64,000 bases of DNA from Candidatus Uhrbacteria bacterium GW2011_GWE2_46_68 (GTDB taxonomy: Bacteria > Patescibacteriota > Patescibacteriia > UBA9934 > GWF2-40-263). Where the stretch lies: the NCBI GenBank assembly GCA_001002765.1, contig LCMS01000007.1:8170-72169 (forward strand), given 5' to 3'. The notes below the pieces were generated by a model. The model did not search any database, had not been told where the DNA came from, and worked only from the letters and a program-made list of their open reading frames with translations. Below are positions 83 to 63,404 of the stretch, in pieces (within the stretch, counting starts at the first letter, position 1; every line of letters starts with the position of its first letter). A program made the translations under genes and the position numbers.

Positions 83-967
83 ATGTCCATGATTGACACA
101 CATTGTCACGTTCACTTTCGCGCGTATCGTGAAGATATGGACAAGGTCATTTGTCGCAGTCTAGAAAAGGGGGTCAAAATGATTACAGTGGGAACCCAAC
201 TTGACACAAGTCAAAGAGGTCTGGAAGTTGCAGAGCATTATGATGGCGTGTGGGCAACCGTTGGTATGCACCCCAGTCATCTTTGTGCACAAAATTTTGT
301 GGATGATGAAGAGCTTGATCCTTCTGCACAGCAGATGATCCATACAGGTGGTCATACCTTTGACCCTGCGGATTTTTTACCTTTGGCGCGTCATCCCAAA
401 TGTGTGGCGATTGGAGAGTGTGGTTTGGATTATGTTCACATTCCTGAAAATCTGAATCGAGAAGAAGTGATCGCCAAACAAAAACAAACCGTGCGTCAGC
501 ATTTTGATCTGGCATCTGAAGTCGGGCTTCCTTTGGCCATTCATTCGCGTGAAGCACAAAAAGATCAACTCGCGCTGATCAGAGAATATATCCAAGCGGG
601 AAAGTTGGCTCGACGCGGAGTCATTCACTGCTTTACTGGAACCTTGGAAGAAGCGCAGGAATATCTGGAAACAGGTTTTCTCATTTCTTTTACCGGCATT
701 ATCACATTTTCTCCACGCAAAAAGGATTTGCTTGTAGGCGGACTCTCTCCGCTTCAAGAAGTCGTACGACAATTACCTTTGGAATCCATTATGATCGAAA
801 CCGATGCTCCATATATTTCCCCCGAGCCTTATCGAGGAAAACGCAATGAGCCTTGGCAAGTGGAGTTTGTGGCAAGAAAAATCGCCGAGATCAAAAAAAT
901 TTCTTTTGAAGAAGTTTGCGAGGTGACCACAAAAAACGCGGAAAAACTTTTTGGTATACACGTGTAG
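83..967 (+). CDS. tatD: TatD-family metal-dependent hydrolase/DNase
   Basis: 294-aa ORF; N-terminal IDTHCHVHF metal-binding motif and TIM-barrel hydrolase signature spacing typical of TatD (PF01026). Confidence 0.85.
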   Translation: MSMIDTHCHVHFRAYREDMDKVICRSLEKGVKMITVGTQLDTSQRGLEVAEHYDGVWATVGMHPSHLCAQNFVDDEELDPSAQQMIHTGGHTFDPADFLPLARHPKCVAIGECGLDYVHIPENLNREEVIAKQKQTVRQHFDLASEVGLPLAIHSREAQKDQLALIREYIQAGKLARRGVIHCFTGTLEEAQEYLETGFLISFTGIITFSPRKKDLLVGGLSPLQEVVRQLPLESIMIETDAPYISPEPYRGKRNEPWQVEFVARKIAEIKKISFEEVCEVTTKNAEKLFGIHV

Positions 968-984
968 ATCCCATTTTTGAGAAC

Positions 985-1027
985 GAAAAAACGGCTGGCA
1001 CTGCGTGTGCTAGCCGTTTGTTGTAGC
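985..1027 (-). terminator. Rho-independent terminator (bidirectional hairpin between convergent genes)
   Basis: A-run then imperfect 12-bp stem aacggctggcac/gtgctagccgtt (989-1018). On the minus strand it is followed by TTTTTTCGTTCTC, 20 nt after the stop of the 1038-2432 gene. Confidence 0.6.
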
Positions 1028-1037
1028 TTAGAAGCAG

Positions 1038-2432
1038 CTACTCGTTGGTATCGTCGGGCATCTCTGGCGGAGCCTCGCTGTCGGCGATCTGTTCGGCCGC
1101 AGGCACCTGGTCGGGTGTCTCATCGGGCCGTACCTCTTCCTCGGGAGGCTTGGCTTCCTCCTGCGGGGCATCGGGAGTCTTCTCGCACTTGGTCTTGAAA
1201 ATCCAGGCACGCAGGGCGCGGTGCCAGGGGTTTCGAGCATCGAAGACCACCTCACTACCGAAGATCAGGCTCATGCGAGCCGTCACGATCGGGGCGACCA
1301 GATCGCCCTCCTTGACCTGGCGGTACCAGTCCCGCCGCTCGCGTCCCTGGAGTGCTTCCGCCTGGGTGGGGAAGGCAACTCCGGTCCAGGAAATCGTGGG
1401 ATCCGTGATCCTGTCCCAGCGCAGCCGTACCTCCTCGAGGATCACAGGCTCGGCCTGACGAAGCAGGCTCACAGCCAACTGGTGGCACATGGGAACCGTG
1501 TCCGTCTGCACGGTCAATCCGGAGTCCAAAACGACCTTTTGGAGACGTTCATCACCAGGGTTGCCGATGATCCTCGCGATCATCTGACGCACGGTCCAAG
1601 GGGACTTGCTATAGGGATCAGGATCGATCTGTTCGATCGTCACACCCAGAAGGGCGAAGGGGTCGATGCCGGCCCGATCTTCCACATCCATGTTGATCTC
1701 GAAGCGATCGAGGTTCACATCCTTGGCCGCGCCAAGGACCGTGATATAGGCCCGTCCTTCCATGAACTTGTTGACTGCAAACGCGGTCTCGATCGGCTTG
1801 CCCTTTCCTGAAGTGGGCAAGTTGTCACTCATCTTATCGAGGAACAGCTGCATGCCCATGCACGATCCGATGAAATACCCGGCCTTCTGATCTTCCCCGT
1901 GGGTGGGGGTGAAGGCAAAGACGATCGAACCCATGGTCCGCAGGATATGCGGAATCTCGGGGATCATGGTCTGGCCCTCACGATCGAGGAGTCGATTCAA
2001 TTGATCGAGGAGATCAGGGTTGGCGTATCCGAAGGGGAGGAGCTTCCAGTACTGACCCTTGCGATCCCAGGGCGCCGGACGCATGAGAAGACCTGGCACA
2101 CCGCCTTGGGTCAAGGGATGACCCTTCTTGAACTCAACACCGAAAGGATTGAAGAGGCGTACGCGCACGACATGTGCGCGGCCATCTTCGACGATCCTGG
2201 CATTGGCCTGGAGGACGACATCATCGCCCACCTTGACCGGGGCGAAGTTCACGGCCACGGCCTGGTACTTGTTGGTGCCAGGCTGGCGCAAGGTGCGCTC
2301 CTTGACCTCTTGGGCTCCACCCTTGACGGTTTCACCCGCCAAGGTGAACAGGTCGAGGATGATGCGGGTCCAGGCAATCGGAAGAGAGTCGACCGCAAGC
2401 GCGGTCTTCGGGAGCTCATGGGTTGTGGTCAC
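1038..2432 (-). CDS. hypothetical protein, compositionally foreign (high GC), acidic Pro-rich C-terminal tail
   Basis: 464-aa ORF spanning the whole GC-rich block; GTG start at 2432 preceded by AGGAGG 5-6 nt upstream; balanced protein-like composition; no family recognised by eye. Confidence 0.6.
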   Translation of the reverse strand: MTTTHELPKTALAVDSLPIAWTRIILDLFTLAGETVKGGAQEVKERTLRQPGTNKYQAVAVNFAPVKVGDDVVLQANARIVEDGRAHVVRVRLFNPFGVEFKKGHPLTQGGVPGLLMRPAPWDRKGQYWKLLPFGYANPDLLDQLNRLLDREGQTMIPEIPHILRTMGSIVFAFTPTHGEDQKAGYFIGSCMGMQLFLDKMSDNLPTSGKGKPIETAFAVNKFMEGRAYITVLGAAKDVNLDRFEINMDVEDRAGIDPFALLGVTIEQIDPDPYSKSPWTVRQMIARIIGNPGDERLQKVVLDSGLTVQTDTVPMCHQLAVSLLRQAEPVILEEVRLRWDRITDPTISWTGVAFPTQAEALQGRERRDWYRQVKEGDLVAPIVTARMSLIFGSEVVFDARNPWHRALRAWIFKTKCEKTPDAPQEEAKPPEEEVRPDETPDQVPAAEQIADSEAPPEMPDDTNE

Positions 2433-2590
2433 GAGGACCTCCTTGTTTTGGGGTTAAAGGAACGTTTGCCGCAGTTGGCAGCCAAAGACAGTAGGAAAAA
2501 TAAGGGGTTTAGTCAAGGTACAAGTTACCACCTTTTGACAGAACCCCTTATTTTTGTTAGGTTTTAGTGCTTTCTTTCCGGAGGAAACCC

Positions 2591-3466
2591 ATGAAAGAAG
2601 CCATTGAAGCTCTTTTCACAGACAATGGGAAACCCACGCAAGCCCACGTGGATGCACTCAAGGGAGTGCGCTCACTTAATGATGTGAGCGCAGATGGAAT
2701 TGATCCCGATGCCATGGATCGCTTTTCTTATTTTCTCGACGCCCCTAAGGAAACGGCAGAAAGTCAGGCAGATGAAGATCGTCGCAGCCTTCTTCTTGCC
2801 CTTGCCAGCCATCTGGCTCCTACATCAAAAAACGAAAAACCTGATGAACCAAAAGAGCCGCGGCGTCCAATCGTACCTTCGAAACAAGAAAAAGAAGAAA
2901 AAAAGAAGGGAGTTCGAGACCCCAGAGAAAGTATACTTGGAGCATTTGATACAGTAGAAATCGAAGAACAAACAGGAGAGGATGAGGAGGAAGAAGTGGA
3001 AGAAGAGCGTCCGCAAAGAGGGAATCGTCGGGGACAACAAAACGGCGACCGTCCCAACGGACGCACACGAGATCAAGATGATCAGCAATATCGTCGTGAT
3101 CGTTGGCAACAAAGAAAGGATGAAAAAAAAGATCCTCAACCTCCACGGCCTGCTATTGTACAGGGAAGCCAAGATCATCTTCTCGCTCGTGTTCAAGCGG
3201 ATCCTCAATGGGTTGAGTTGCGGAATTACATTTTCGGAGAAATCTTGATTGTGCGAGGAAAAGATTCCACAAAGGTTGCCGGAGCCCTTTGGCAACTCTC
3301 TGAGCTTACTGATAGGTTGGTACATGGAGAAGTCATGGCAAGCCGATACACACACAATATGCGCGTTTTGGCCGGTGAAATGGTAACGAATCTTCACCTG
3401 CACAAAGATATCGAAAATCCCGCATGGTTTGAGAAACGCTACGGAGCGCTCCCCAAGAGTGTCTAA
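2591..3466 (+). CDS. hypothetical protein with central K/E/R/D/Q-rich low-complexity region
   Basis: ATG at 2591 with GGAGG 6 nt upstream (the longer ORF from 2567 lacks an RBS); ordered C-terminal ~130 aa. Confidence 0.55.
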   Translation: MKEAIEALFTDNGKPTQAHVDALKGVRSLNDVSADGIDPDAMDRFSYFLDAPKETAESQADEDRRSLLLALASHLAPTSKNEKPDEPKEPRRPIVPSKQEKEEKKKGVRDPRESILGAFDTVEIEEQTGEDEEEEVEEERPQRGNRRGQQNGDRPNGRTRDQDDQQYRRDRWQQRKDEKKDPQPPRPAIVQGSQDHLLARVQADPQWVELRNYIFGEILIVRGKDSTKVAGALWQLSELTDRLVHGEVMASRYTHNMRVLAGEMVTNLHLHKDIENPAWFEKRYGALPKSV

Positions 3467-3468
3467 GA

Positions 3469-3500
3469 CCGCCACGCCAGCGGTCTTTTACTTTTTTGAT
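3469..3500 (+). terminator. Rho-independent terminator
   Basis: aagaccgc-cacgcca-gcggtctt hairpin followed by TTACTTTTTTG immediately after the stop at 3466. Confidence 0.6.
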
Positions 3501-3564
3501 AAACAAAGGGGTCAGGTCTTTACCTTTTACCTTATCCAATATTTTGGCTTTAAACTTGCTTATT

Positions 3565-27775: not shown

Positions 27776-29149
27776 ATGTTTCCTTTTTCACACTCTTCCC
27801 GTCGCGATGGTATAGATCGATCACCTTCCGAATCCGTCGCTCATCCCTTTGCCGCCCCTGCGGAGGCAGTCCCGCCTGTGGCGGATCCCGCCGTAGGCGG
27901 GAGGGTCCGGCGTACTTCGGCAAACCTAAGCGAAGCCATCATGGATTCGGTTTCAAGTGTCCGTGATTCTCTTCACGAACGTTATCGCTCACACTTCAAT
28001 ATTCTCCGCAGGGAGATTATTGATTTTACAAAAGCTCACGACATTCCAATAGAATCTCTTGCCAAACCAGATCTCCTCCGTGAAGCTGCCGGCAAACTCT
28101 CCACCCAAGATCTTGAGCGACTTGCCAATCTTCTTGAACGCTTTGAGTACCTCATTGTCAAAAAAGAACCTGGGAAAGAAAAACTCCCCGAACATCTTCA
28201 AGAAATTGAGCGTCTTTACCATCTTGAGGATCAATACACTTCCCAAGTGACATTTCTTGAATACGTAGGGATTCTCAAAGAAGGAGCCATTATTGGGATA
28301 GATGGTCACGAGTACCCCATCCCAAAGCTTGAACAAATAGCTCTCCGTCTATTTGAACGCCGTGGCGAACTTTCCGCTAAGCACGACCAAGGTTTTACCA
28401 AACTTCTTTTGGTTCCTTTTGGAATGAACCTCGATATGCTTATCTCCACTCTCAAACAATTCCTTCTGGATTATAAAGGGTCCCATCCTGATTTTATGTT
28501 TGACACAGATGATCCCATCTCAAACATAAGAAAGCGCCTGAAAAGATCCGATACTACGGACACAGAAGCTTTTCAAAATGCAAATGGAGGAGATCATCAA
28601 GAACTTGTTTACTACCCACTGTTTTTTAATGAAAATCATCAAGGTAAAACAAAAACGAAAATCCTTGAAGATCAAAGTGTTAACCCAGCTTCCTTTCCTG
28701 GCTGGACAGTCCATTTGTTTCAACCTTCTGATCCTTCAAATCAACATTCCCTAGGCTTTGCCCCCATTCCCGAAGAAAAAGGAACAACCCAGGGAAATGA
28801 AATTCCTCGACAAGATTTGAAAACAGGAAAATACAGCTGTGAATATCTCGATATTCTTGGAAGTGCGAAACAACAAGATTCTCCTTATTGTCATGAATCC
28901 GGCCTCACCCCAGAGGACTGGATTAGTGCTTTCATGATGCATCTTCATGAAACCGGAAAACCTTTAGACGAGAATAAAAGTTGTTATCTTGTGGGAGCTT
29001 TTTTCCCTTCCCTTGGTATTCCGCGAGCTTCTTGGAGTATAGATTATATGGACGGGCGTAGTTATGGGAGTAATCGTGTATCTTTGAATATTCAATATAT
29101 TCACGGGACATCTTCTGACATAGGCTCTCGTTTTTCAGTGATTATTTAG
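27776..29149 (+). CDS. tandem paralog 1 of an unrecognised protein family
   Basis: ATG at 27776 (the ORF-track start at 27752 is TTG); conserved core EAIMDSVSSVRDSL...DLERLANLLERFEYL...GFTKLLLVPFGM shared with the next two genes; no signal peptide. Confidence 0.7.
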   Translation: MFPFSHSSRRDGIDRSPSESVAHPFAAPAEAVPPVADPAVGGRVRRTSANLSEAIMDSVSSVRDSLHERYRSHFNILRREIIDFTKAHDIPIESLAKPDLLREAAGKLSTQDLERLANLLERFEYLIVKKEPGKEKLPEHLQEIERLYHLEDQYTSQVTFLEYVGILKEGAIIGIDGHEYPIPKLEQIALRLFERRGELSAKHDQGFTKLLLVPFGMNLDMLISTLKQFLLDYKGSHPDFMFDTDDPISNIRKRLKRSDTTDTEAFQNANGGDHQELVYYPLFFNENHQGKTKTKILEDQSVNPASFPGWTVHLFQPSDPSNQHSLGFAPIPEEKGTTQGNEIPRQDLKTGKYSCEYLDILGSAKQQDSPYCHESGLTPEDWISAFMMHLHETGKPLDENKSCYLVGAFFPSLGIPRASWSIDYMDGRSYGSNRVSLNIQYIHGTSSDIGSRFSVII

Positions 29150-29157
29150 CTCTATTT

Positions 29158-30624
29158 ATGTCTCCTCTCCGTTCATCTTTCGAATCCACCCCATCCGTCA
29201 TCCCCACAGAGGCACATTCCTCCAATGACCGCCATCCCCGCGGAGGCGGGGATCCATCGTCTTCTGCGCTTCTTGGCGAAGCCATCATGGATTCTGTTTC
29301 AAGTGTCCGTGATTCTCTTCCCGAACGTTATCGCTCACACTTCAATATTCTCCGCAGCGAGATTATTGATTTCACAAAAGCTCACGGGATTCCAAAAGAA
29401 TCTCTTGGCAAGCCTGACCTCCTCCGCGAGGCGACCTGTAAACTTTCCACTTCAGATCTTGAACGACTTGCCAATCTTCTCGAACGCTTTGAGTATCTTG
29501 TGAAACACAAAGAACTCATGAAAGAAGACTATACTGAAGCCCTCGAGTATGTGGAGAAGTATTATCACCTCAAAAAGCAATACGATTCCCAAGTCTCCCT
29601 TCTTGAACAAGTAGGTATTCTTCATCCAAAGAAAAAATCAAAGCACATACAAAAACTTTCTACTTTTTTTCGCTCCCTTCTTCCTTATGGAAAAAAGAAA
29701 AGACCCGAAGTTTCAACTGTTCCTGAGACCCCAGAGATACTTTGTATAACTGGTATTGATGACAACGAGTATCCCATTCCCACACTTGAGCAGATTGCTT
29801 CTCGTCTCTTTGAGCGTCGTGAAACTCTAAAAACCAAACACGACCAAGGCTTTACCAAACTCCTCCTTGTTCCCTTTGGGATGAGTCTTGATAGTCTCCG
29901 AGAAACACTCAAACAATTCCTTCTTAAGTATAAGAAGGGTCATCCCTCTTTTGGTCTTGATACTGATAATCCTCTCTACACATGGTTAAACTATCAGGGA
30001 GCAGACATGGGGGATTTCCCAAACCTTGTCTATTATCCACAGTTTCTTACAAAAAAAGGTCATGGAGGGAAGACAAAAGCACAGATACTCAAAGAACAAT
30101 CCGAAGGACAATGGACCCCTGCCTTCGCAGGGGTGGCAGGAGGGAGTGGAACAAGGTTCCATGGCTGGATCGTTCATCTTCTCCAACCATCAAACCCAGA
30201 CTCACAAGACATCGAAGTTCCCATGGGCTTTGCCCTTATTCCTCGTGAAGGCCAAGAAACACCCAAAGGTGACCTCACCCCTCGTCCTTCTCTTGAAGCA
30301 GGTAAATCTCCTGATGAATATCTTTCCATTCTTCAAAAAGCTCAAGATGACAAAGGCTCTCCCTATCATGGTGAAACAGGCATGACTCCCGAAGATTGGA
30401 TCATGGCCTTTATGCTTCATCTTTCTGAAACAGGAAAACCACTGGACAACTTTGCAAATGGCATGGAGAGCATCTCTTACCTTACGGGAGCTTTTTTTCT
30501 TTCTTCCAGCCTTGTGCCAGGCGTGTATTGGAGCAGTGTTGATGATGGTCGGGCTTTTCTTGGCGGGGACGGATATTACGATCGAGCCAGCAATTTCGGC
30601 GCGCGATCTTCGGTGATCGTTTAA
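29158..30624 (+). CDS. tandem paralog 2 of the same family
   Basis: 488 aa; starts 8 nt after paralog 1; ends ...ARSSVIV-stop. Confidence 0.75.
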   Translation: MSPLRSSFESTPSVIPTEAHSSNDRHPRGGGDPSSSALLGEAIMDSVSSVRDSLPERYRSHFNILRSEIIDFTKAHGIPKESLGKPDLLREATCKLSTSDLERLANLLERFEYLVKHKELMKEDYTEALEYVEKYYHLKKQYDSQVSLLEQVGILHPKKKSKHIQKLSTFFRSLLPYGKKKRPEVSTVPETPEILCITGIDDNEYPIPTLEQIASRLFERRETLKTKHDQGFTKLLLVPFGMSLDSLRETLKQFLLKYKKGHPSFGLDTDNPLYTWLNYQGADMGDFPNLVYYPQFLTKKGHGGKTKAQILKEQSEGQWTPAFAGVAGGSGTRFHGWIVHLLQPSNPDSQDIEVPMGFALIPREGQETPKGDLTPRPSLEAGKSPDEYLSILQKAQDDKGSPYHGETGMTPEDWIMAFMLHLSETGKPLDNFANGMESISYLTGAFFLSSSLVPGVYWSSVDDGRAFLGGDGYYDRASNFGARSSVIV

Positions 30625-30630
30625 TCTTTG

Positions 30631-31915
30631 ATGTCTATGTCTCTTTTTCGACCAACTTTTGAATCCTCTCCCTCCGACACCCCTGCGGAGGCAGGGGTCC
30701 AGCGTACTTCGGCAAACTTCCACGAAGCCATCATGGATTCGATTTCAAGTGTTCGCGATTCTCTTCCCAAACAACACCGCGCGCACTTTGAAACTCTGCG
30801 TCAAGAGATCATCATTTTTACCGAGGTTCACGGGATTCCAAAAGAATCTCTTGGCAAGCCCGACCTCCTGCGCGAGGTGACCGGCAAACTCTCCACTTCA
30901 GATCTTGAGCGACTTGCCAATCTTCTCGAACGTTTTGAATATCTGCTTAAGAATGGGGAACCAAAGAAAGAAGAGATAGACCTTGTCAAAGCCATTGAGT
31001 ATGCAAAGGAGCATTATCATCTTCGTGAGCAATACGATTCTCAAGTAGAGCTTCTTGAGGAAGTGGGCATCCTTAAAGAAGGAGTCATCCTAGGCATAGA
31101 CGGTAACACCTATCCCATTCCCACCTTGGAACAAATAGCCGTCCGTCTTTTTGAACGACGTGAGACTCTCGAGACTAAACACAACCAAGGCTTTACCAAA
31201 CTCCTCCTCGTTCCCTTTGGCATGAGTCTTGATAGTCTCCAAGAAACACTCGAACAATTTCTTCTCGAGTACAAGAAGAATAATCCCTCCTTTAATCTAA
31301 ATATGGATGATCCTCTCTGCACATGGTCAGTATATCAAAGAGCAGACATCGGAGATTCCCCCAAGCTTGTCTATGAGCCACAGTCTTTTACAGAAGAAGG
31401 TCATGGGGGGAAGACAAAAGCACAGATACTCGAAGAACAATCCGAAGGACGATGGACCCCTGCCTTTGCAGGGGTGAAAGGAGAGAAGGGATTGGGAACC
31501 CCAGGTTGGACTGTTCATCTTCTCCAACCATCAAACCCGAACGAACAAGACATCGAAACTCCCAAAGGCTTTGCTCCCATTCCCAGAGAAGGACGGGGAA
31601 CACCTCAAGAAAATCTCGTCCCTCGACATCCCCTTGAAGCAGGTAAATCTCCCAATGAATATCTTTCCATTCTTCAAAATGCTCAAGGTGATAAAGACTC
31701 TCCCTATCATGGTGAAACAGGCATGACTCCCGAAGATTGGATCGAACCCCACAAACAAAGAATGTATCTCTTACCTTACAGGAGCTTTTTTTCGTTCCTC
31801 CATCGCTGTGCCTTGCATGTATTGGTGTCGCGGCAATCGTCAGGCCGACCTCGACAGGGATGATCCTCGTATTCGGGATGGGAACATTGGTTTGCGGTCT
31901 TCGGTGATCGTTTAA
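30631..31915 (+). pseudogene. tandem paralog 3; apparent frameshift near 31740-31765
   Basis: Matches paralog 2 through ...GETGMTPEDWI, then the frame slips relative to paralog 2. The conserved C-terminus (ISYLTGAFF...DDPRIRDGNIGLRSSVIV-stop at 31913-31915) continues in the +1 frame; the called ORF ends early at 31863. Confidence 0.5.
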
Positions 31916-31959
31916 TCTTTGATACGTATACGCATCGGTCATTGTTTAACTTTTCTCTT

Positions 31960-48481: not shown

Positions 48482-50104
48482 CTATGTGGAGAATCCTCCA
48501 TCCAGTGGTACAGATTCGCTTGGCTTATATGCTCTCAAAAATTTCTTTCGCATTCCCATGATGATTGCCTGCAATTCCTCAGATCGCAAGAGAAAAGAAA
48601 CAAGGAGATAACTGGAAAGTCCTATTCCTCCGGCAAAACACCCTTGAAAAAATACACCTAAAAATGTGTCTAGAGAAAACAATTGAACAGCCACGGGTTT
48701 TAGAAGCTGTGTCACTAAGGCACATACCAAACCGGCCACTGTTGTTTTGAATAAAGCGGAAATCATTTTAGATTCCCCCAAGGTTCCTAACCGTTGTCGA
48801 AGAGGCACCCATAAAAGAGCGAGTTGAATAATGGAAGCGATGGAAAAAGCTATACCAAGCCCGATGACACCAAATATTGAGGTGAGCCAAAAAGCACTGA
48901 CAAGCCCCACCACAACAGACACAATTCCTGCCATCATGGGAGTGACAGTATCATGAAGCCCAAAAAAAGCTCGAGCCAATACATAGACAAGAGATTGTGG
49001 AATAAAAGTAAGAGAAAAAAATGCCAATGTATCTGCGGTAAGAATTGTTGCCTCCCAATCAAAGGCTCCTGCTCCTACGACCAGACGCACCATTTGCGCG
49101 CGTAAAACAAGAAAAAGAATAGTCATAGGTACCAAAAGGAACAAAAGCTGTCGCACCACATTCACAAATGTTTCCACAAAAGCCTCCACCCGTTTTCCCT
49201 CTAACAATTCTGTAAAGGTGGGAAAAGCCGCGATCGCATAAGAAATCCCAATGATCCCAACGGGAAAATATTCAATGTTATAAGCGAATTGAAAAATAGA
49301 AACACTTCCCACAGCCAATCCTGAAGCAATCATGGTAAAAAAAACAAACATGATTTGTTGCACAGCAATTCCGAGCATGCGAGGACCTGTCAGACGTATC
49401 ACTTCTTTCGTGTCATGATCCCGCGGATGAAATGTCCACTGGTAACGATATCCTGACCCATATACACCCACCACTTGTACCCCCAAGTGCAAAAGAGCCC
49501 CAAAAACTACTCCCCAGGCAAGTCCAATATCTCCCCACCAATCTACAAACCACAATGCTCCTGCAATAATGCCCAAGTTATAAAAAATGGGTGCGATCGC
49601 ATAAAGTGCAAAACGTTTCAAGCTTTGTAGTGCGCTGCCAAAAACCATGGAACAAGCCAATAGCACTTGTGCCAATAACATGATGCGAAAAAAAACCATG
49701 ACTAATTCTTGTTTTGCAAGAGAAAACCCCGGTGCAATCAAAGAAGAAAAAAATGGAGCAAACACCGCAAGAAGCAAGGAAACTCCTCCGACAGAAACTA
49801 CCACTAAATGCAAAAAATTATTTGAAAAAATCCAAGCCTTCTTTCGATCAAACGGATGGTGGTAGTACTTGCTAAAAAGAGGAATAAAGCTCGCGGATAA
49901 AGATCCGACCACAAGCAAACTGAACATGAAATCGGGAATTTTAAACGCCGCATAATAGGCATCAAGTGTATCTCCTGCTCCAAAGGCTCCGGCTAAAATA
50001 CGATCGCGTGCAAATCCCACCAATCGACTTACAAAAGAAAACAGGCCCACCATGACGGCTGCACTAATAATCGTTTTTGATTCGAGGTGAAAGAATTTAA
50101 ACAT
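48482..50104 (-). CDS. murJ: lipid II flippase MurJ
   Basis: 540 aa; 14-TM MviN/MurJ family; N-terminal FVSRLVGFARDRILAGAFG. Confidence 0.9.
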   Translation of the reverse strand: MFKFFHLESKTIISAAVMVGLFSFVSRLVGFARDRILAGAFGAGDTLDAYYAAFKIPDFMFSLLVVGSLSASFIPLFSKYYHHPFDRKKAWIFSNNFLHLVVVSVGGVSLLLAVFAPFFSSLIAPGFSLAKQELVMVFFRIMLLAQVLLACSMVFGSALQSLKRFALYAIAPIFYNLGIIAGALWFVDWWGDIGLAWGVVFGALLHLGVQVVGVYGSGYRYQWTFHPRDHDTKEVIRLTGPRMLGIAVQQIMFVFFTMIASGLAVGSVSIFQFAYNIEYFPVGIIGISYAIAAFPTFTELLEGKRVEAFVETFVNVVRQLLFLLVPMTILFLVLRAQMVRLVVGAGAFDWEATILTADTLAFFSLTFIPQSLVYVLARAFFGLHDTVTPMMAGIVSVVVGLVSAFWLTSIFGVIGLGIAFSIASIIQLALLWVPLRQRLGTLGESKMISALFKTTVAGLVCALVTQLLKPVAVQLFSLDTFLGVFFQGCFAGGIGLSSYLLVSFLLRSEELQAIIMGMRKKFLRAYKPSESVPLDGGFST

Positions 50105-51236
50105 GAAAATGATCGTCTTCGCGTACGCTAATCTTTCTTTGCTTCATTTTCTTTGTCCGTGCATTTTTCTCAAAAAAATGTAACCCCCACGCTCCCAATA
50201 CTCCACCCCCCACCAAACAAGCAAGAATCCCCTGCACCAAAGGATTTTCTAACACCCAAAAAGGAATATCTAAAAACACCTGATCCTCGGATACAACTCC
50301 CTGATCATTGGTTATTTGTAAAGAAACTTCGTAAGATCCTGCTCTTGTAAAACTGTGTTCCAGGGAACGTTTCTGTGAAGTCACTCCATCCCCAAAATCC
50401 CAAGTCATCACCACACCTTCTTTCTCTGGGGTTAATGCTTCGAATTGAAAGGTCTTCCACGATTGACGTTTAAACGTAAAAAGAGCTTGAGGAGAAGATA
50501 AAAGTGGGGCTGCCGACTGCCAATCCTCATCACCATTCTCTGTCGGCAAAACAAAAACGACTTGTTCAAACGTTTCTTGCATGTTTTCAACTACCTGTTG
50601 CACCAAGGTTGAAGATGCCGCCTCTTTGGAAGAATCTTTTTCGATTGGTTCTTCTTCCTCTTTTTGTTCTTCAAAACGATCTGGATCATCGGGATATACA
50701 TCCTCTTCGTTCTCTACACGATCCCCATCGCGATCACTATCGCAGATATCTCCCTTTCCATCATGGTCTGCATCGTTTTGATTCGCATTCGAGCTCGTAG
50801 AGCAATTATCATCTTCATTTAAAATTCCGTCCCCGTCATCATCAAACACGGGCTCATACGTTCCGGTGAGAGCAAAATTATTTTCGGCATATATATCTTC
50901 CGGAACTGTTCCACGAATTTCCGCACGCAAGTTAAAAGAACTCGAGGGCACCACAAAATCCACATACACCTCTTCTGGCGCCCCATCATGCAAAACCGAA
51001 ATCATCTGTGAATCTCCCACAGGAATCGATCCTTGGAAAAAACTCACATATCCTGTGACATCCATGTCCCCCGCATTACGCACGGTCGCATAAATACGTA
51101 CCGTGGATCCGGCGACCAAATCATCAGAAAAACGAATTTCTGAAGCTTGAATGGAAAGATTGGCTGTCTGTGCGTATAAGACCAGAGGCCAAAACCCTAT
51201 ACTCACAACAAAAAGAAAAAGAGAAAAATAACGCAT
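50097..51236 (-). CDS. secreted/anchored surface protein with CARDB-like, thrombospondin type-3 Ca-binding repeats and a PKD domain
   Basis: Signal peptide from MRYFSLFLFVV; Asp-rich DDDGDG...DADHDGKGD...DSDRDGD repeats; PKD motif TWDFGDGVTSQ; C-terminal TM anchor plus basic tail. Confidence 0.7.
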   Translation of the reverse strand: MRYFSLFLFVVSIGFWPLVLYAQTANLSIQASEIRFSDDLVAGSTVRIYATVRNAGDMDVTGYVSFFQGSIPVGDSQMISVLHDGAPEEVYVDFVVPSSSFNLRAEIRGTVPEDIYAENNFALTGTYEPVFDDDGDGILNEDDNCSTSSNANQNDADHDGKGDICDSDRDGDRVENEEDVYPDDPDRFEEQKEEEEPIEKDSSKEAASSTLVQQVVENMQETFEQVVFVLPTENGDEDWQSAAPLLSSPQALFTFKRQSWKTFQFEALTPEKEGVVMTWDFGDGVTSQKRSLEHSFTRAGSYEVSLQITNDQGVVSEDQVFLDIPFWVLENPLVQGILACLVGGGVLGAWGLHFFEKNARTKKMKQRKISVREDDHFHV

Positions 51237-51240
51237 AAAA

Positions 51241-51804
51241 TCAAAGGGGTTGAAAAGTGTCGCTTGAGTGGAGACCGTACAAAATCGCTTCGTCAATCGT
51301 CAGGTGCAACACAGGATGAAAACTTGGGTGCACGCGTACGACGACATAAGGAATCACGCGTGAAGGAGAGGAGGTTGTGACAAGAGAAATCACGTCTGAA
51401 TGATGGAATCCAAATTGCTTTGCTCGTTTTTCGCTGAGATGAAGATGGCGAATGGGAAGAATGGCACACGCAAGTTTTTTGATGGAACCAGCCGCTCCCT
51501 CAAGTGCCACCACCCCTGCACGACCCATATCACCCGAAAGACGAGAAGGCGCCTTAATCCCCAAAGCCATCGCGTCTGTAGCTGTTAATTCCACTTGTGT
51601 TTTTTGACGTTCAGGCCCCAAGACAGGTACGAACAACTCTTTTCCCTTTCCTCCTTTTACCAAAACGCAATCGCCCGAAAAAAACTGACCTTGATGTTTT
51701 GTGGACGATTGTTTGGTCCAAGGAAAATCTCCAAATAACATCTGACGATCTTTGGAAGAAAGATGGATATGTCGATAAACGATTTCAAGAGGAATAGGTG
51801 TCAT
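51241..51804 (-). CDS. pduL: phosphate propanoyl/acetyl-transferase PduL
   Basis: Two PduL half-domains: RHIHLSSKDRQMLFG, VPVLGPER, RHLHLSEKRAKQFGFHHSDVI, VVVRVHPSFHPVLHLTIDEA; aligns with Salmonella PduL. Confidence 0.8.
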   Translation of the reverse strand: MTPIPLEIVYRHIHLSSKDRQMLFGDFPWTKQSSTKHQGQFFSGDCVLVKGGKGKELFVPVLGPERQKTQVELTATDAMALGIKAPSRLSGDMGRAGVVALEGAAGSIKKLACAILPIRHLHLSEKRAKQFGFHHSDVISLVTTSSPSRVIPYVVVRVHPSFHPVLHLTIDEAILYGLHSSDTFQPL

Positions 51805-61379: not shown

Positions 61380-63404
61380 TCATTTGAAAGAAACCGATGT
61401 ACCTGGCGAAACTTTTCCCGATTGAGACGTCGGTGGTTTGGGGGTGGGTGCCAAGGATGATAGAGAAATCTCCTTTGCTATCGGAGGTTTAGATGGTGCC
61501 GCGACCGCATGAGAAACCGATGGAGCCAATCGACGTTCGGGTGTGGGAAATGGACGTGATTCTGGTCTTCTTTGCGGCGGCCGGCGATCTCTCCTTTGCT
61601 CGCGATCAGAAGGGGTCGAAACTCGCATGGGAGCCTCCCTTGTTTGCCGCGGTCTTTCCACAGGCGCCGCAAACGCTGCAGGAATCTCTCGTTTTTCTTG
61701 AACAGGCGCAATTTTTTCTCGAACATCTTCTGGTGGCTTCACGTCCGCACGACTGGCAAGTGCGTTTAAAGAAATCGCTGGTGTATCAACAGTTTTCTGC
61801 ACCAATTCTCCTTCCGTGATTTTTAATTCCGGTCGTGACGACAAAGAAGATGGAGGTGGGCGTCGATCCCCTCCTCGATCCCCTCTCCGGTCTCCCCCAT
61901 CTCCCCCCATTCCTCTTCCCCCACCTTTTCGTCGCTCGCGAATCTTTGCAATACAATCATCACAATAAATCGGACGTGAACGATCCAACTCCACGGGCAA
62001 CACAACTTGGGCACCGCATTCTGTACAGTTGTATTCGAATCGTGGTTTACGCGATTCTTTCACGGATTTTTTCTTTTCTTCGGCTTCTTGCAACGCCTCG
62101 TCGATATCCACATCCCCCATGCCGCTCCATTTCAAAATTTTATCTTCGATTTCCGCACGCGGTTTGGAATAGCGTTCACGCGACACGCGAACCACTTTTT
62201 CCTCCGAATGCGTACGCTCGGCAATCGGCGGCAAAGTGGCGGCGGAAAACGGCTGGCTTGTCACGCCATCGATCAACAGTTTGAGATAAATATTGTACTT
62301 GGGAATGTTGATCAAATCCTCGGGCATAAACCGCGGACCAAATTCGGTTTCCATGTACTGAGCGTCCGGTGAGCCCACCCGAAATGTAATAATGGTTCCC
62401 ATGTTGCCGAACACGGCCTCACGTACAACATCGGTGAGTTGAGCAATATATTGATGCGCCATGATAAGACATAGGTGATATTTACGCGCCTCGGACAAAA
62501 TGGAAGCGAACGATTCCACGGCAAAGTTTTGAAACTCATCCACGTACATGTAAAAATCTTTGCGATCCGCTTCGGGCATATCCACCCGCTCCATGGCAGC
62601 CAATTGCATTTTGGTGATGAGCATGCCCCCCATGAGTCGCATGCTGTCTTCTCCGATACGCCCCTTGGACAAATTGATGATGAATATTTTTCCCTCATCC
62701 ATCATGGCGCGAATATCGATCGTGGATTTCACTTGCGCCACGATATTGCGAATCACGGCCGAAGATAAAAATTGTCCGATTTTGTTTTGGATAGGCGCCA
62801 CGGCTTCTTGCGCGTACTTTTCGTTGTAAGACGCAAACTCTTTCAGCCAAAATTGTTTGACGATTGGGTCTTTCACATTTCCCACAATACGTTTGCGATA
62901 ATCCGCATCAGACAAAAGTCGATTGATACCAAGCAAGGTAGATCCTGGATTATCGAGCAGCGCCAAAATGGAATTATTCAAAATATATTCCATACGGGAA
63001 GACCACATGTTTTCCCAAATCTTTTTGAAAACCCCCATCATGCCGCTTGCGACTAAATGCTTGTGTCGCTCGTCCACGGCCTCCAAAATATTAAATCCGA
63101 CCGGATAATCAATGTCAGACGGATTGAAATAAATCACGTCATTGATGCGATGACTCGGAATAAAATCAATAAGCTTCTCTGCCGTGTCCCCATGCGGATC
63201 CACATAACAACATCCATGCCCGGCGTAAATATCAGAGAGAATCATGTTTTCCAAAAGCACGGTTTTGCCCATACCGGTTTTTCCGATCACATACATATGC
63301 CGACGACGGTCATCGGTTCGTATGCCAAACTTGATCATCTGATTGCGAAAGTTTGTGCGAGCAAAATACGTTACTTCTTTTTCGTGGTTTTCATCGTAGG
63401 ACAT
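61380..63404 (-). CDS. HerA/VirB4-superfamily (DUF87-like) P-loop ATPase with C-terminal zinc ribbon and Arg/Gly/Pro-rich disordered tail
   Basis: Walker A GKTGMGKT followed by the HerA-type YVDPHGD motif; Walker B YMYVDEFQNF; CTECG...CDDC zinc ribbon; ~200-aa RGG/Pro-rich tail. Confidence 0.6.
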   Translation of the reverse strand: MSYDENHEKEVTYFARTNFRNQMIKFGIRTDDRRRHMYVIGKTGMGKTVLLENMILSDIYAGHGCCYVDPHGDTAEKLIDFIPSHRINDVIYFNPSDIDYPVGFNILEAVDERHKHLVASGMMGVFKKIWENMWSSRMEYILNNSILALLDNPGSTLLGINRLLSDADYRKRIVGNVKDPIVKQFWLKEFASYNEKYAQEAVAPIQNKIGQFLSSAVIRNIVAQVKSTIDIRAMMDEGKIFIINLSKGRIGEDSMRLMGGMLITKMQLAAMERVDMPEADRKDFYMYVDEFQNFAVESFASILSEARKYHLCLIMAHQYIAQLTDVVREAVFGNMGTIITFRVGSPDAQYMETEFGPRFMPEDLINIPKYNIYLKLLIDGVTSQPFSAATLPPIAERTHSEEKVVRVSRERYSKPRAEIEDKILKWSGMGDVDIDEALQEAEEKKKSVKESRKPRFEYNCTECGAQVVLPVELDRSRPIYCDDCIAKIRERRKGGGRGMGGDGGDRRGDRGGDRRPPPSSLSSRPELKITEGELVQKTVDTPAISLNALASRADVKPPEDVREKIAPVQEKREIPAAFAAPVERPRQTREAPMRVSTPSDREQRRDRRPPQRRPESRPFPTPERRLAPSVSHAVAAPSKPPIAKEISLSSLAPTPKPPTSQSGKVSPGTSVSFK

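What the first reader, a model, noticed from the sequence alone, without database searches (positions are those of the whole stretch)
27776..31915. Three tandem paralogs of an unrecognised protein family, embedded in the priA-def-fmt operon
Three consecutive plus-strand genes (27776-29149, 29158-30624, 30631-31915) encode 410-490-aa proteins of one unrecognised family. A ~75-aa block is ~80-85% identical: EAIMDSVSSVRDSL-ERYRSHFNILR-EIIDFTKAHGIPKESLGKPDLLRE---KLST-DLERLANLLERFEYL. Downstream similarity is lower but includes GFTKLLLVPFGM, GHGGKTKAQILKEQSEG-WTPAFAGV, GFAPIP-E, SPYHGETGMTPEDWI and the C-terminal RSSVIV. The extreme N-termini are Ser/Pro-rich and variable. Paralogs 2 and 3 are 12/19 identical at their N-termini with synonymous differences, which implies these residues are translated. 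None has a signal peptide, TM helix or recognisable catalytic motif. The genes are 6-8 nt apart and have no obvious SD. The preceding secreted-repeat-protein gene overlaps paralog 1. They are followed on the same strand by a DODA-type dioxygenase, priA, def and fmt. Tandem, diverging paralogs next to a secreted envelope protein suggest an effector, surface or variation module rather than housekeeping, but I do not recognise the fold.
Basis: seen in the sequence. Interest (0 to 1): 0.8.

Follow-up and report, generated by a model that had tools for sequence, protein, structure and literature searches.

The report
Tandem retroelement-diversified binding-protein paralogs
The three tandem genes of "unknown family" belong to a greatly expanded family of lectin-fold binding proteins in a Candidatus Uhrbacteria genome; the last ~50 codons carry the signature of rewriting by a diversity-generating retroelement, but no such element lies in this window.

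Summary
The three plus-strand paralogs are real (57-70% identical overall, 76-89% in the N-terminal block). They have no Pfam, NCBIfam, PADLOC or PDB sequence match. In this window the third gene is frameshifted by a 53-nt deletion that three sibling assemblies lack.

Across 115 distinct Uhrbacteria family genes, the last ~50 codons vary as much at codon positions 1 and 2 as at position 3. About ten codons read NNY with Asn/Asp/Ser/Gly/Tyr spectra, and they fall where the Berkelbacteria TR has adenines (p=1e-7). Paralogs 10-29% diverged just upstream share VR scaffolds 94-97% identical yet differ at 41-70% of the adenine-derived positions.

So these are DGR-type variable proteins from a family present at many copies per genome. 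No TR or RT was found in the window or within 10 kb of more than 100 other copies, and VRs are identical across samples. Current activity is therefore unproven. This is a new member of a known kind, of moderate interest.

The parts
27776..29149 (+). Paralog 1 (457 aa), the most diverged copy
   Evidence: ORF listed. tblastn to P2 gives 50% identity and global alignment 59.8%. The gene is called identically in sibling assemblies.
29158..30624 (+). Paralog 2 (488 aa), identical to GenBank KKU32275.1 / KKU41007.1 / HBK33632.1 'hypothetical protein', Candidatus Uhrbacteria
   Evidence: P0390 has the same sequence. The exact protein is found on 18 contigs from several samples. AF2 model: pLDDT 87.8, pTM 0.82.
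30631..31915 (+). Paralog 3, frameshifted in this window by a 53-nt deletion between 31743 and 31744. It is intact (445 aa) in sibling assemblies.
29254..29682 (+). P2 N-terminal all-helical domain (aa 33-175).
   Evidence: Secondary structure and pLDDT; block identity.
29740..30621 (+). P2 C-terminal alpha/beta domain (aa 195-488) with an FGE/C-type-lectin-like fold. This is the unit conserved in 781 protein clusters.
28985..29149 (+). P1 variable-region homolog, strongly drifted
   Evidence: 44 of 112 mismatches to the canonical VR scaffold plus 27 gapped columns.
30472..30624 (+). P2 variable region (VR), partly diverged from the canonical scaffold
   Evidence: 31 of 118 mismatches at fixed scaffold positions plus a 3-nt indel. 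Hypervariable NNY codons at P2 aa 452-480.
31766..31915 (+). P3 variable region (VR), which fits the canonical scaffold shared by many paralogs
   Evidence: 10 of 118 mismatches at fixed scaffold positions and no gaps.
30604..30632 (+). Conserved 3' end of P2 (CGATCTTCGGTGATCGTTTAA + TCTTTGAT), running past the stop codon. Candidate IMH-like VR boundary.
   Evidence: DNA-level conservation across copies and genomes. The IMH role is inferred, because no TR is available.
31895..31923 (+). Conserved 3' end of P3 (CGGTCTTCGGTGATCGTTTAA + TCTTTGAT)
27870..27902 (+). In-frame GC-rich inverted repeat in the P1 N-terminal variable segment
29234..29253 (+). In-frame GC-rich hairpin (8-bp stem, 4-nt loop) in the P2 N-terminal segment
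30115..30134 (+). In-frame GC-rich hairpin in a low-confidence loop of the P2 lectin-fold domain (aa ~320, 'TPAFAGV')
30679..30698 (+). In-frame GC-rich hairpin in the P3 N-terminal segment
31456..31475 (+). In-frame GC-rich hairpin in the P3 internal loop

Best explanation
The three genes are paralogous DGR-type variable proteins. Each has an N-terminal helical domain and a C-terminal C-type-lectin/FGE-like ligand-binding domain. The last ~50 codons form a variable region (VR). That VR was written by mutagenic retrohoming: a reverse transcriptase copies a template repeat (TR) while randomising its adenines, and the cDNA replaces the VR.

TR codons of the AAY type become NNY, which gives up to 15 amino acids and never a stop. 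The non-adenine scaffold and the conserved 3' end (...GCGGTCTTCGGTG...TAA) stay fixed.

The family has expanded in Candidatus Uhrbacteria into many copies. They sit as tandem arrays directly behind housekeeping genes and are presumably co-transcribed with them. Together they form a repertoire of distinct binding sites.

In this window P3 still carries the canonical VR scaffold, P2 is partly drifted and P1 is strongly drifted.

Shown here: the homology, the fold, the adenine-type variation pattern, scaffold homogenisation between diverged paralogs, and a canonical cassette in a distant homolog.

Inferred: that an Uhrbacteria TR/RT, acting in trans from elsewhere or now lost, did the writing; that the conserved 3' end is the IMH; and that the proteins are cytoplasmic ligand sensors or binders.

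For: 2. Homology to a proven DGR target. The family profile finds 781 clusters sharing the ~300-aa C-terminal domain, several fused to AAA_5 ATPases. This is the architecture reported as the commonest CPR DGR target (PMC10907252, citing Paul 2017). In the Berkelbacteria locus L002 the homolog is followed by a TR and an RT carrying IGNLTSQ and YGDD motifs. VR and TR differ at 7 positions in 113 nt, all at TR adenines.

3. VR signature in the Uhrbacteria family (115 distinct genes). The entropy ratio of codon positions 1+2 to position 3 is ~1.05 in aa ~450-474, against 0.3-0.6 across most of the gene. Codons 452, 459, 463, 467, 469, 471, 475, 477 and 479 show all four bases at positions 1 and 2, and T or C at position 3. 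Their amino-acid spectra are dominated by N, D, S, G, Y, R, F and H. In the hypervariable VR columns 78% of third positions are pyrimidines and 10% of residues are K/E/Q/M/W. Equally variable columns elsewhere give 48% and 28%.

4. Family nucleotide columns aligned to adenines of the Berkelbacteria TR have entropy 1.63 bits, against 1.06 bits for the others (Mann-Whitney p=1.3e-7).

5. Paralog pairs whose VR scaffolds differ by only 2.6-6.0% differ at 41-70% of adenine-type columns. Those same pairs are 10-29% diverged in the adjacent 90 codons. This is the pattern expected if a shared template rewrote diverged genes.
Against: - No TR and no RT were found in the 64-kb window, nor within 10 kb of more than 100 other family copies (925 kb). 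This rests on an nhmmer VR model, tblastn with the RT, and Pfam scans of 37 window ORFs, none with an RT domain.
- No Uhrbacteria-named RT appears among the top 120 CPR RT hits.
- VRs are identical across samples. The exact P2 protein is on 18 contigs, VRs are the same within 90% clusters, and L004 and L005 have identical VRs. Ongoing diversification is therefore not seen at consensus level.
- P1 and P2 depart from the canonical scaffold at non-adenine positions. Either several templates existed or these copies have drifted since they were last rewritten.
Confidence: 0.85

Rival explanations
1. Fossil repertoire. The family was diversified by a DGR in the past, but the retroelement is no longer in these genomes. 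The VRs are now fixed, germline-encoded variants that change only by point mutation, tandem duplication and recombination between paralogs. This is a sub-reading of the main explanation and differs only on whether diversification still occurs.
For: - No TR or RT lies near any of more than 100 copies or in the window.
- VRs are invariant across independent samples.
- The window shows a gradient of scaffold decay, P3 < P2 < P1.
- Variants within clusters are mosaics (for example P0408 and P0426).
Against: - Only flanks of +/-10 kb were examined, and remote trans-acting DGRs are known (PMC8144416, PMC10907252).
- Some scaffolds are still 94-97% identical between diverged paralogs, which argues for fairly recent rewriting.
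- Consensus assemblies hide low-frequency VR variants. Several contigs break exactly at the start of the P3 VR.
Confidence: 0.4
2. An ordinary paralog family under positive (diversifying) selection at a binding surface, with no retroelement ever involved.
For: The family is multi-copy with a hypervariable C-terminus. No RT or TR is at hand.
Against: Selection alone does not explain the following:
- third codon positions kept as pyrimidines;
- K/E/Q/M/W depleted at exactly the hypervariable codons;
- the coincidence with TR adenines of a verified homologous cassette;
- VR scaffolds more conserved than the flanking coding sequence.
Confidence: 0.05
3. An FGE / EgtB / OvoA-like enzyme family (sulfoxide synthase or formylglycine-generating type) duplicated in tandem.
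Against: - Sequence identity to these hits is 7-14%.
- There is no Pfam FGE-sulfatase hit even at E<=1.
- The invariant residues (K227, F232, P239, Y292, K307, E406, E412) are not a metal-binding His triad or a Cys pair.
- DGR variable proteins such as TvpA are themselves of the FGE subtype of this fold.
- A hypervariable surface is not expected of an enzyme.
Confidence: 0.04
4. A mobile or selfish element (transposase-like gene), with the copies spread by transposition.
For: There are many dispersed copies, always inserted just after host genes. The 5' (ATGTCTCTTTTTCGACCAAC) and 3' DNA ends are conserved, and palindromes lie near the 5' end.
Against: - No transposase, recombinase or nuclease fold or family hit.
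- Paralogs within a genome are 50-70% identical, not near-identical as active insertion sequences are.
- There are no terminal inverted repeats or target-site duplications.
- The palindromes lie inside the reading frame and also occur elsewhere in the genomes.
Confidence: 0.03

Closest known systems
[quoted passage not shown] 2017, as summarised in PMC10907252); example here: Berkelbacteria locus L002
   Same: The ~300-aa C-terminal domain is homologous (tblastn E 3e-32; profile hits). The VR is at the extreme C-terminus, and the AAY-type codons fall at the same aligned positions.
   Different: The window proteins lack the AAA_5 ATPase and carry a ~140-aa helical N-terminal domain instead. They have no adjacent TR or RT, and they are present as many tandem or dispersed paralogs.
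TvpA (Treponema denticola variable protein 1, PDB 2y3c) and its paralogous DGR targets
   Different: Sequence identity is 13%. TvpA is an outer-surface lipoprotein, whereas no signal peptide or lipobox is present here. The copy number here is far higher.
Mtd of Bordetella phage BPP-1 (PDB 1yu0) and TaqVP (5vf4)
   Different: Those are a phage receptor-binding trimer and a Thermus protein, each next to its own TR-RT cassette. The structural match here is only remote.
Thiohalocapsa PB-PSB1 multi-locus DGRs with remote, trans-diversified targets (PMC10907252)
   Same: Many CLec targets per genome; incomplete loci or remote targets; duplication and recombination of target genes.
   Different: That system has nine RT-containing loci and 15 targets linked to NACHT/STAND conflict systems. 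Here no RT has been found, the genes are embedded among housekeeping genes, and the genome is a tiny CPR genome.
FGE-sulfatase / EgtB / OvoA enzymes
   Different: No sequence-family match, no conserved catalytic residues, and a hypervariable C-terminal surface.

Membership tests
DGR variable (target) protein | C-terminal C-type-lectin / FGE-like fold carrying the variable residues | tested here: met
DGR variable (target) protein | Variable region at the 3' end of the gene, with variation confined to template-adenine positions (NNY codons from AAY) | tested here: met
   Measured across 115 family genes rather than within one population. Entropy by codon position, NNY spectra and K/E/Q depletion. 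Coincidence with adenines of a homologous verified TR, p=1.3e-7. Scaffold versus adenine-column divergence.
DGR variable (target) protein | A cognate template repeat (TR) that differs from the VR only at adenines | tested here: not met
   No TR in the window or in 925 kb of related loci (nhmmer; blastn). This is met only for the distant homolog L002, with 7 of 7 mismatches at TR adenines. Rest of the genome: not testable with these tools.
DGR variable (target) protein | A DGR-clade reverse transcriptase (and usually Avd) in the same genome | tested here: inconclusive
   Absent from the window and from all Uhrbacteria loci fetched. Whole MAGs could not be scanned. No Uhrbacteria-named protein appears among the top 120 of 4819 RT hits.
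DGR variable (target) protein | IMH: a conserved element at the 3' end of the VR that marks the target | tested here: inconclusive
   The 3' end GCGGTCTTCGGTG..TTTAA(Y)CTTTGAT is conserved at the DNA level across paralogs and runs past the stop codon. Without a TR, the IMH/IMH* relation cannot be checked.
DGR variable (target) protein | Ongoing diversification of the VR within populations | tested here: not met
   VRs are identical in sibling assemblies and within 90% clusters. Read-level data are not available.
CPR AAA-ATPase-CLec DGR targets | N-terminal AAA_5 ATPase fused to the CLec domain | tested here: not met
   No AAA_5 hit in P1-P3. It is present in relatives P0179, P0195, P0235, P0246, P0251 and in L002.
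FGE-sulfatase / EgtB-type enzymes (PF03781) | Match to the family profile and conserved catalytic residues | tested here: not met
   No Pfam hit at E<=1. No PDB sequence hit. The invariant residues are not of the catalytic type.

The most novel reading that the evidence does not exclude
Candidatus Uhrbacteria keep a genome-wide, germline-fixed library of retroelement-written lectin-fold receptors, with at least 11 copies on one 158-kb contig and 6 within 21 kb of another. The library has been uncoupled from any resident DGR. The writing element would be lost, or only transiently present on a mobile element. The library is now reshuffled by tandem duplication, mosaic recombination between paralogs, and in-frame insertion of GC-rich palindromes into tolerant loops. 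This would be a static counterpart to on-the-fly hypermutation, and would take up a substantial share of a roughly 1-Mb genome.
Probability: 0.3. Interest if true: 0.65.

Novelty: new member of a known kind. Interest (0 to 1): 0.5.

Why it matters
This result turns three "hypothetical proteins" into a defined class: binding proteins whose ligand-contact surface was written by a diversity-generating retroelement. Thousands of homologous sequences across Patescibacteria that currently have no Pfam family fall into the same class.

The family is unusually expanded for a reduced CPR genome, and its copies sit far from any reverse transcriptase. It is therefore a good test case for two open questions about DGRs. 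One is how remote targets are addressed in trans. The other is what becomes of a target repertoire when the retroelement is silent or lost.

Surveys that require the VR to sit next to the RT would miss this family (PMC8144416 states this limitation). A profile built from this family could recover such orphan targets.

Tried and rejected
- Sequence libraries gave nothing for the paralogs: Pfam, NCBIfam, PADLOC, PHROGs and PDB sequence searches.
- Foldseek against the PDB gave no significant hit. The afdb50 library was unavailable.
- Rfam and tRNA scans of the window were empty.
- The genome-contig scan returned only three distant loci.
- I first considered a mobile-element reading, because of the conserved DNA ends, the palindromes and the placement just after host genes. 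I rejected it for lack of any transposase-like fold and because the paralogs are too diverged.
- I tested whether the 8-bp-stem, 4-nt-loop GC hairpins are the cruciforms that lie downstream of VRs in some DGRs. They are not a constant feature: 7 of 67 non-tandem copies and 15 of 34 tandem copies have one within 160 nt. The same palindromes also occur in intergenic DNA elsewhere.
- Searches for a TR or RT all failed to find one in Uhrbacteria sequence. These were blastn and nhmmer with VR models, tblastn with the (reconstructed) Berkelbacteria RT, Pfam scans of 30 further window ORFs, two pattern scans of viral contigs, and an RT homolog search.
- Comparison of sibling assemblies and 90% clusters for VR microdiversity found none.
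- My first mapping of TR adenines onto the family alignment was mis-registered, because mafft --keeplength dropped residues. I redid it with an explicit register.
- Paul et al. 2017 (PMC5436926) could not be read.
Full report
**Observation.** The window holds three consecutive plus-strand homologous genes: P1 27776-29149, P2 29158-30624 and P3 30631-31915.
- Global identities are 59.8% (P1/P2), 69.6% (P2/P3) and 57.4% (P1/P3).
- The 74-aa block EAIMDS...FEYL is 76-89% identical.
- P3 is not a single open frame here. After TPEDWI the frame shifts, and the RSSVIV end is read in another frame.
- Three independent assemblies of the same population (L083, L085, L086; flanks 99.99-100% identical) carry the same gene order. 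L083 has a complete, intact 445-aa P3. In L085 and L086 P3 reads through the window's deletion site but is cut by the contig end.
- The window lacks 53 nt of P3 between 31743 and 31744. The GenBank contig LCMG01000020 has a different 39-nt deletion close by. The L085 and L086 contigs end at or just before the start of the P3 variable region.
- The array itself is therefore real. The P3 frameshift is either a strain variant or an assembly error in a repeat.
- P2 is identical to GenBank KKU32275.1 / KKU41007.1 / HBK33632.1, a 'hypothetical protein' of Candidatus Uhrbacteria (GW2011_GWF2_46_218 and relatives).
- None of the 14 genes checked in the window has a Shine-Dalgarno motif, so its absence here is not informative.

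**No annotated family, but a very large one.** Pfam, NCBIfam, PADLOC, PHROGs and PDB sequence searches give nothing for the paralogs.
- A search of the 5.8-billion-protein collection finds 307 relatives. All are unannotated, all named ones are from Candidatus Uhrbacteria, and each MAG holds many.
- In one related 21-kb stretch there are six copies: one before queA, four in tandem after PGK, and one after UvrD. All are on the strand of their neighbours and 5-12 nt behind them.
- A metagenome scan returned 75 loci (925 kb) with about 170 copies, 115 of them distinct and full-length. One 158-kb contig carries at least 11.
- A profile search of 1.84 billion representatives finds 781 clusters that share only the C-terminal ~300 residues. 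Most are 310-400 aa, and several of 745-902 aa have an N-terminal AAA_5 ATPase.

**Fold.** An AlphaFold2 model of P2 built on a 67-sequence alignment is confident (pLDDT 87.8, pTM 0.82).
- It has a disordered N-terminus (1-26), a helical domain (33-175) and an alpha/beta domain (195-488).
- Foldseek against the PDB finds nothing significant. The fold call is therefore moderate on its own.

**A homolog in a canonical DGR cassette.** In Berkelbacteria locus L002 the homologous domain ends a 936-aa AAA_5 protein (699..3509).
- An nhmmer model of the family's 3' ends found a second, non-coding copy 240 nt downstream.
- Over the 113-nt homologous stretch, gene and copy differ at 7 positions, and every one is an adenine in the downstream copy. 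This is a VR/TR pair.
- It is followed by a reverse transcriptase with the DGR-type IGNLTSQ and YGDD motifs. The RT is split in the assembly by a (GA)n run.
- PMC10907252, citing Paul et al. [quoted passage not shown] PMC8144416 describes a DGR clade restricted to Patescibacteria.

**The DGR signature in the Uhrbacteria family.** A codon alignment of the 115 genes gives the following.
- Across most of the gene, entropy at codon positions 1 and 2 is 0.3-0.6 of that at position 3. In P2 residues ~450-474 the ratio is ~1.05.
- Codons 452, 459, 463, 467, 469, 471, 475, 477 and 479 carry all four bases at positions 1 and 2, while position 3 stays T or C. Their residue spectra (N, D, S, G, Y, R, F, H...) are those expected from AAY to NNY.
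- In the 21 most variable VR codon columns, 78% of third positions are pyrimidines and only 10% of residues are K/E/Q/M/W. In the 14 equally variable columns elsewhere the values are 48% and 28%.
- Registered against the Berkelbacteria cassette, family columns opposite TR adenines have entropy 1.63 bits, against 1.06 bits for the rest (Mann-Whitney p=1.3e-7).
- Some paralog pairs have VR 'scaffolds' (non-adenine columns) differing by only 2.6-6.0%. They differ at 41-70% of adenine-type columns and are 10-29% diverged in the 90 codons just upstream.
- A VR scaffold more conserved than its own gene, with scattered changes at fixed positions, is what repeated replacement from a shared template produces. 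Ordinary diversifying selection does not explain it.

**The three window genes.** Measured against the canonical scaffold (118 fixed nucleotides):
- the P3 VR (31766-31915) has 10 mismatches and no gaps;
- P2 (30472-30624) has 31 mismatches plus a 3-nt indel;
- P1 (28985-29149) has 44 of 112 mismatches plus 27 gapped columns.

The 3' end GCGGTCTTCGGTG...TTTAA followed by (Y)CTTTGAT is conserved at the DNA level past the stop codon. It is a candidate IMH, but this cannot be tested without the TR.

**What is missing.**
- No TR and no RT occur in the 64-kb window. The evidence is blastn, nhmmer, tblastn and Pfam scans of 37 ORFs, none with an RT domain (30 of at least 250 aa, seven around the locus). 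The 42.7-46.7 kb stretch is a ribosomal-protein/rpoA cluster.
- No TR or RT occurs in any of the Uhrbacteria loci.
- An RT homolog search gave 4819 CPR-type RTs, none of the top 120 named Uhrbacteria. Two pattern scans of viral contigs were empty.
- VRs are identical between sibling assemblies, within 90% clusters and, for P2, on 18 contigs from several samples.
- Variation within clusters is instead mosaic, for example a P0039-like body carrying the P0012 VR. This points to recombination between paralogs or to chimeric assembly.
- Whether a trans-acting DGR still serves these genes or the repertoire is now fixed cannot be decided with these tools.

**Mechanism proposed.** Each gene encodes a helical N-terminal domain and a lectin-fold binding domain. 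The C-terminal surface of that domain was randomised by adenine-specific mutagenic retrohoming from an AAY-rich template. Duplication into arrays behind housekeeping genes gives a repertoire of different binding sites that are probably co-transcribed with their neighbours. No signal peptide or membrane segment is apparent, and relatives are fused to AAA_5 ATPases. An intracellular sensor or binder role therefore seems more likely than a surface adhesin, but this is inference.

**Side observation.** Perfect GC-rich hairpins (for example ACCCCTGC-NNNN-GCAGGGGT and TCCCGCC-NNN-GGCGGGA) lie in frame in the paralogs.
- In the window, the strict pattern occurs four times, all inside P2 and P3, with 0 expected by chance. 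A related inverted repeat sits in P1.
- Across all loci, density is 0.74 per kb inside family genes against 0.07 per kb outside.
- They cluster at the disordered N-terminus and in a low-confidence loop of the lectin domain.
- They are not consistently downstream of VRs, and the same palindromes occur in intergenic DNA elsewhere.
- They look like small palindromic repeats tolerated in loops. Their origin is unexplained.

**Verdict.** The 'unrecognised family' is a new, unannotated member family of a known kind, DGR variable proteins. It is notable for its copy number and for the absence of a nearby retroelement.

Noticed in passing
window 27870-27902, 29234-29253, 30115-30134, 30679-30698, 31456-31475; also L005 12086, 12685, 13457, 14050, 20076, 20872: Several sequence types of perfect GC-rich palindromes (7-8-bp stem, 3-6-nt loop) are inserted in frame at two or three hot spots of the family genes: the disordered N-terminus, a loop at aa ~270-320, and aa ~345. 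They are about 11-fold denser in family genes than elsewhere. The N-terminal hairpins of P2 and P3 differ by a compensatory pair of changes in the stem. The same palindromes also occur, sometimes in pairs, in intergenic DNA of related contigs. Their origin and any function are unexplained.
   Followed up: partly
window 31743|31744; L083 7474-8811; L084 7474-8772; ends of L085 and L086: Assemblies disagree just upstream of the P3 variable region. This window has a 53-nt deletion, GenBank LCMG01000020 has a 39-nt in-frame deletion, one assembly is intact, and two contigs end there. This could be repeat-induced misassembly or real heterogeneity at the VR boundary.
   Followed up: partly
proteins P0001, P0002, P0003, P0408, P0426, P0403: Near-identical family members differ by whole patches that match other paralogs, for example an N-terminal segment or the entire VR swapped. 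This indicates gene conversion between paralogs, or chimeric metagenome assemblies.
   Followed up: partly
window 29623-29745 (P2 aa 156-196): P2 carries a 41-residue Lys-rich insertion (HPKKKSKHIQKLSTFFRSLLPYGKKKRPEVSTVPETPEILC) between the helical and lectin-fold domains, with low pLDDT (60-67). It is shared only with P0004 from a more distant Uhrbacteria contig (L008), which marks an orthologous sub-lineage.
   Followed up: no
window 27776-27800, 29158-29185, 30637-30665 and gene junctions; L005 junctions: The first ~25 nt of the genes (ATGTCTCTTTTTCGACCAACTT..GAATC) and the spacer TAA(Y)CTTTGAT(N4-5)ATG are conserved at the DNA level between paralogs and genomes. A TTTGAT motif precedes the ATG even where the upstream gene is unrelated (PGK). 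This may be a translational coupling or re-initiation signal in a genome without Shine-Dalgarno sequences.
   Followed up: no
L002 4700-4760: The Berkelbacteria DGR reverse transcriptase is interrupted by a long (GA)n microsatellite that shifts the frame between the N-terminal half and the IGNLTSQ/YGDD half. This could be a phase-variable switch or an assembly error.
   Followed up: no
L007 / L034 2235-3477 versus L004-L006 2140-3477: The family copy upstream of queA is intact in three assemblies but broken into pieces in the GenBank assembly GCA_001002565.1. This is another case of copy decay or misassembly.
   Followed up: no
window 61380-63404 (-) and 50097-51296 (-): A TrwB/TraG-like type IV coupling-protein homolog (674 aa) and a PKD/thrombospondin-repeat protein (399 aa) lie among otherwise housekeeping genes.
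   Followed up: no
L001 25-888 and 1110-1826: In another Patescibacteria contig, a truncated 238-aa copy of the lectin-fold domain lies directly after an IS-like transposase ORF.
   Followed up: no
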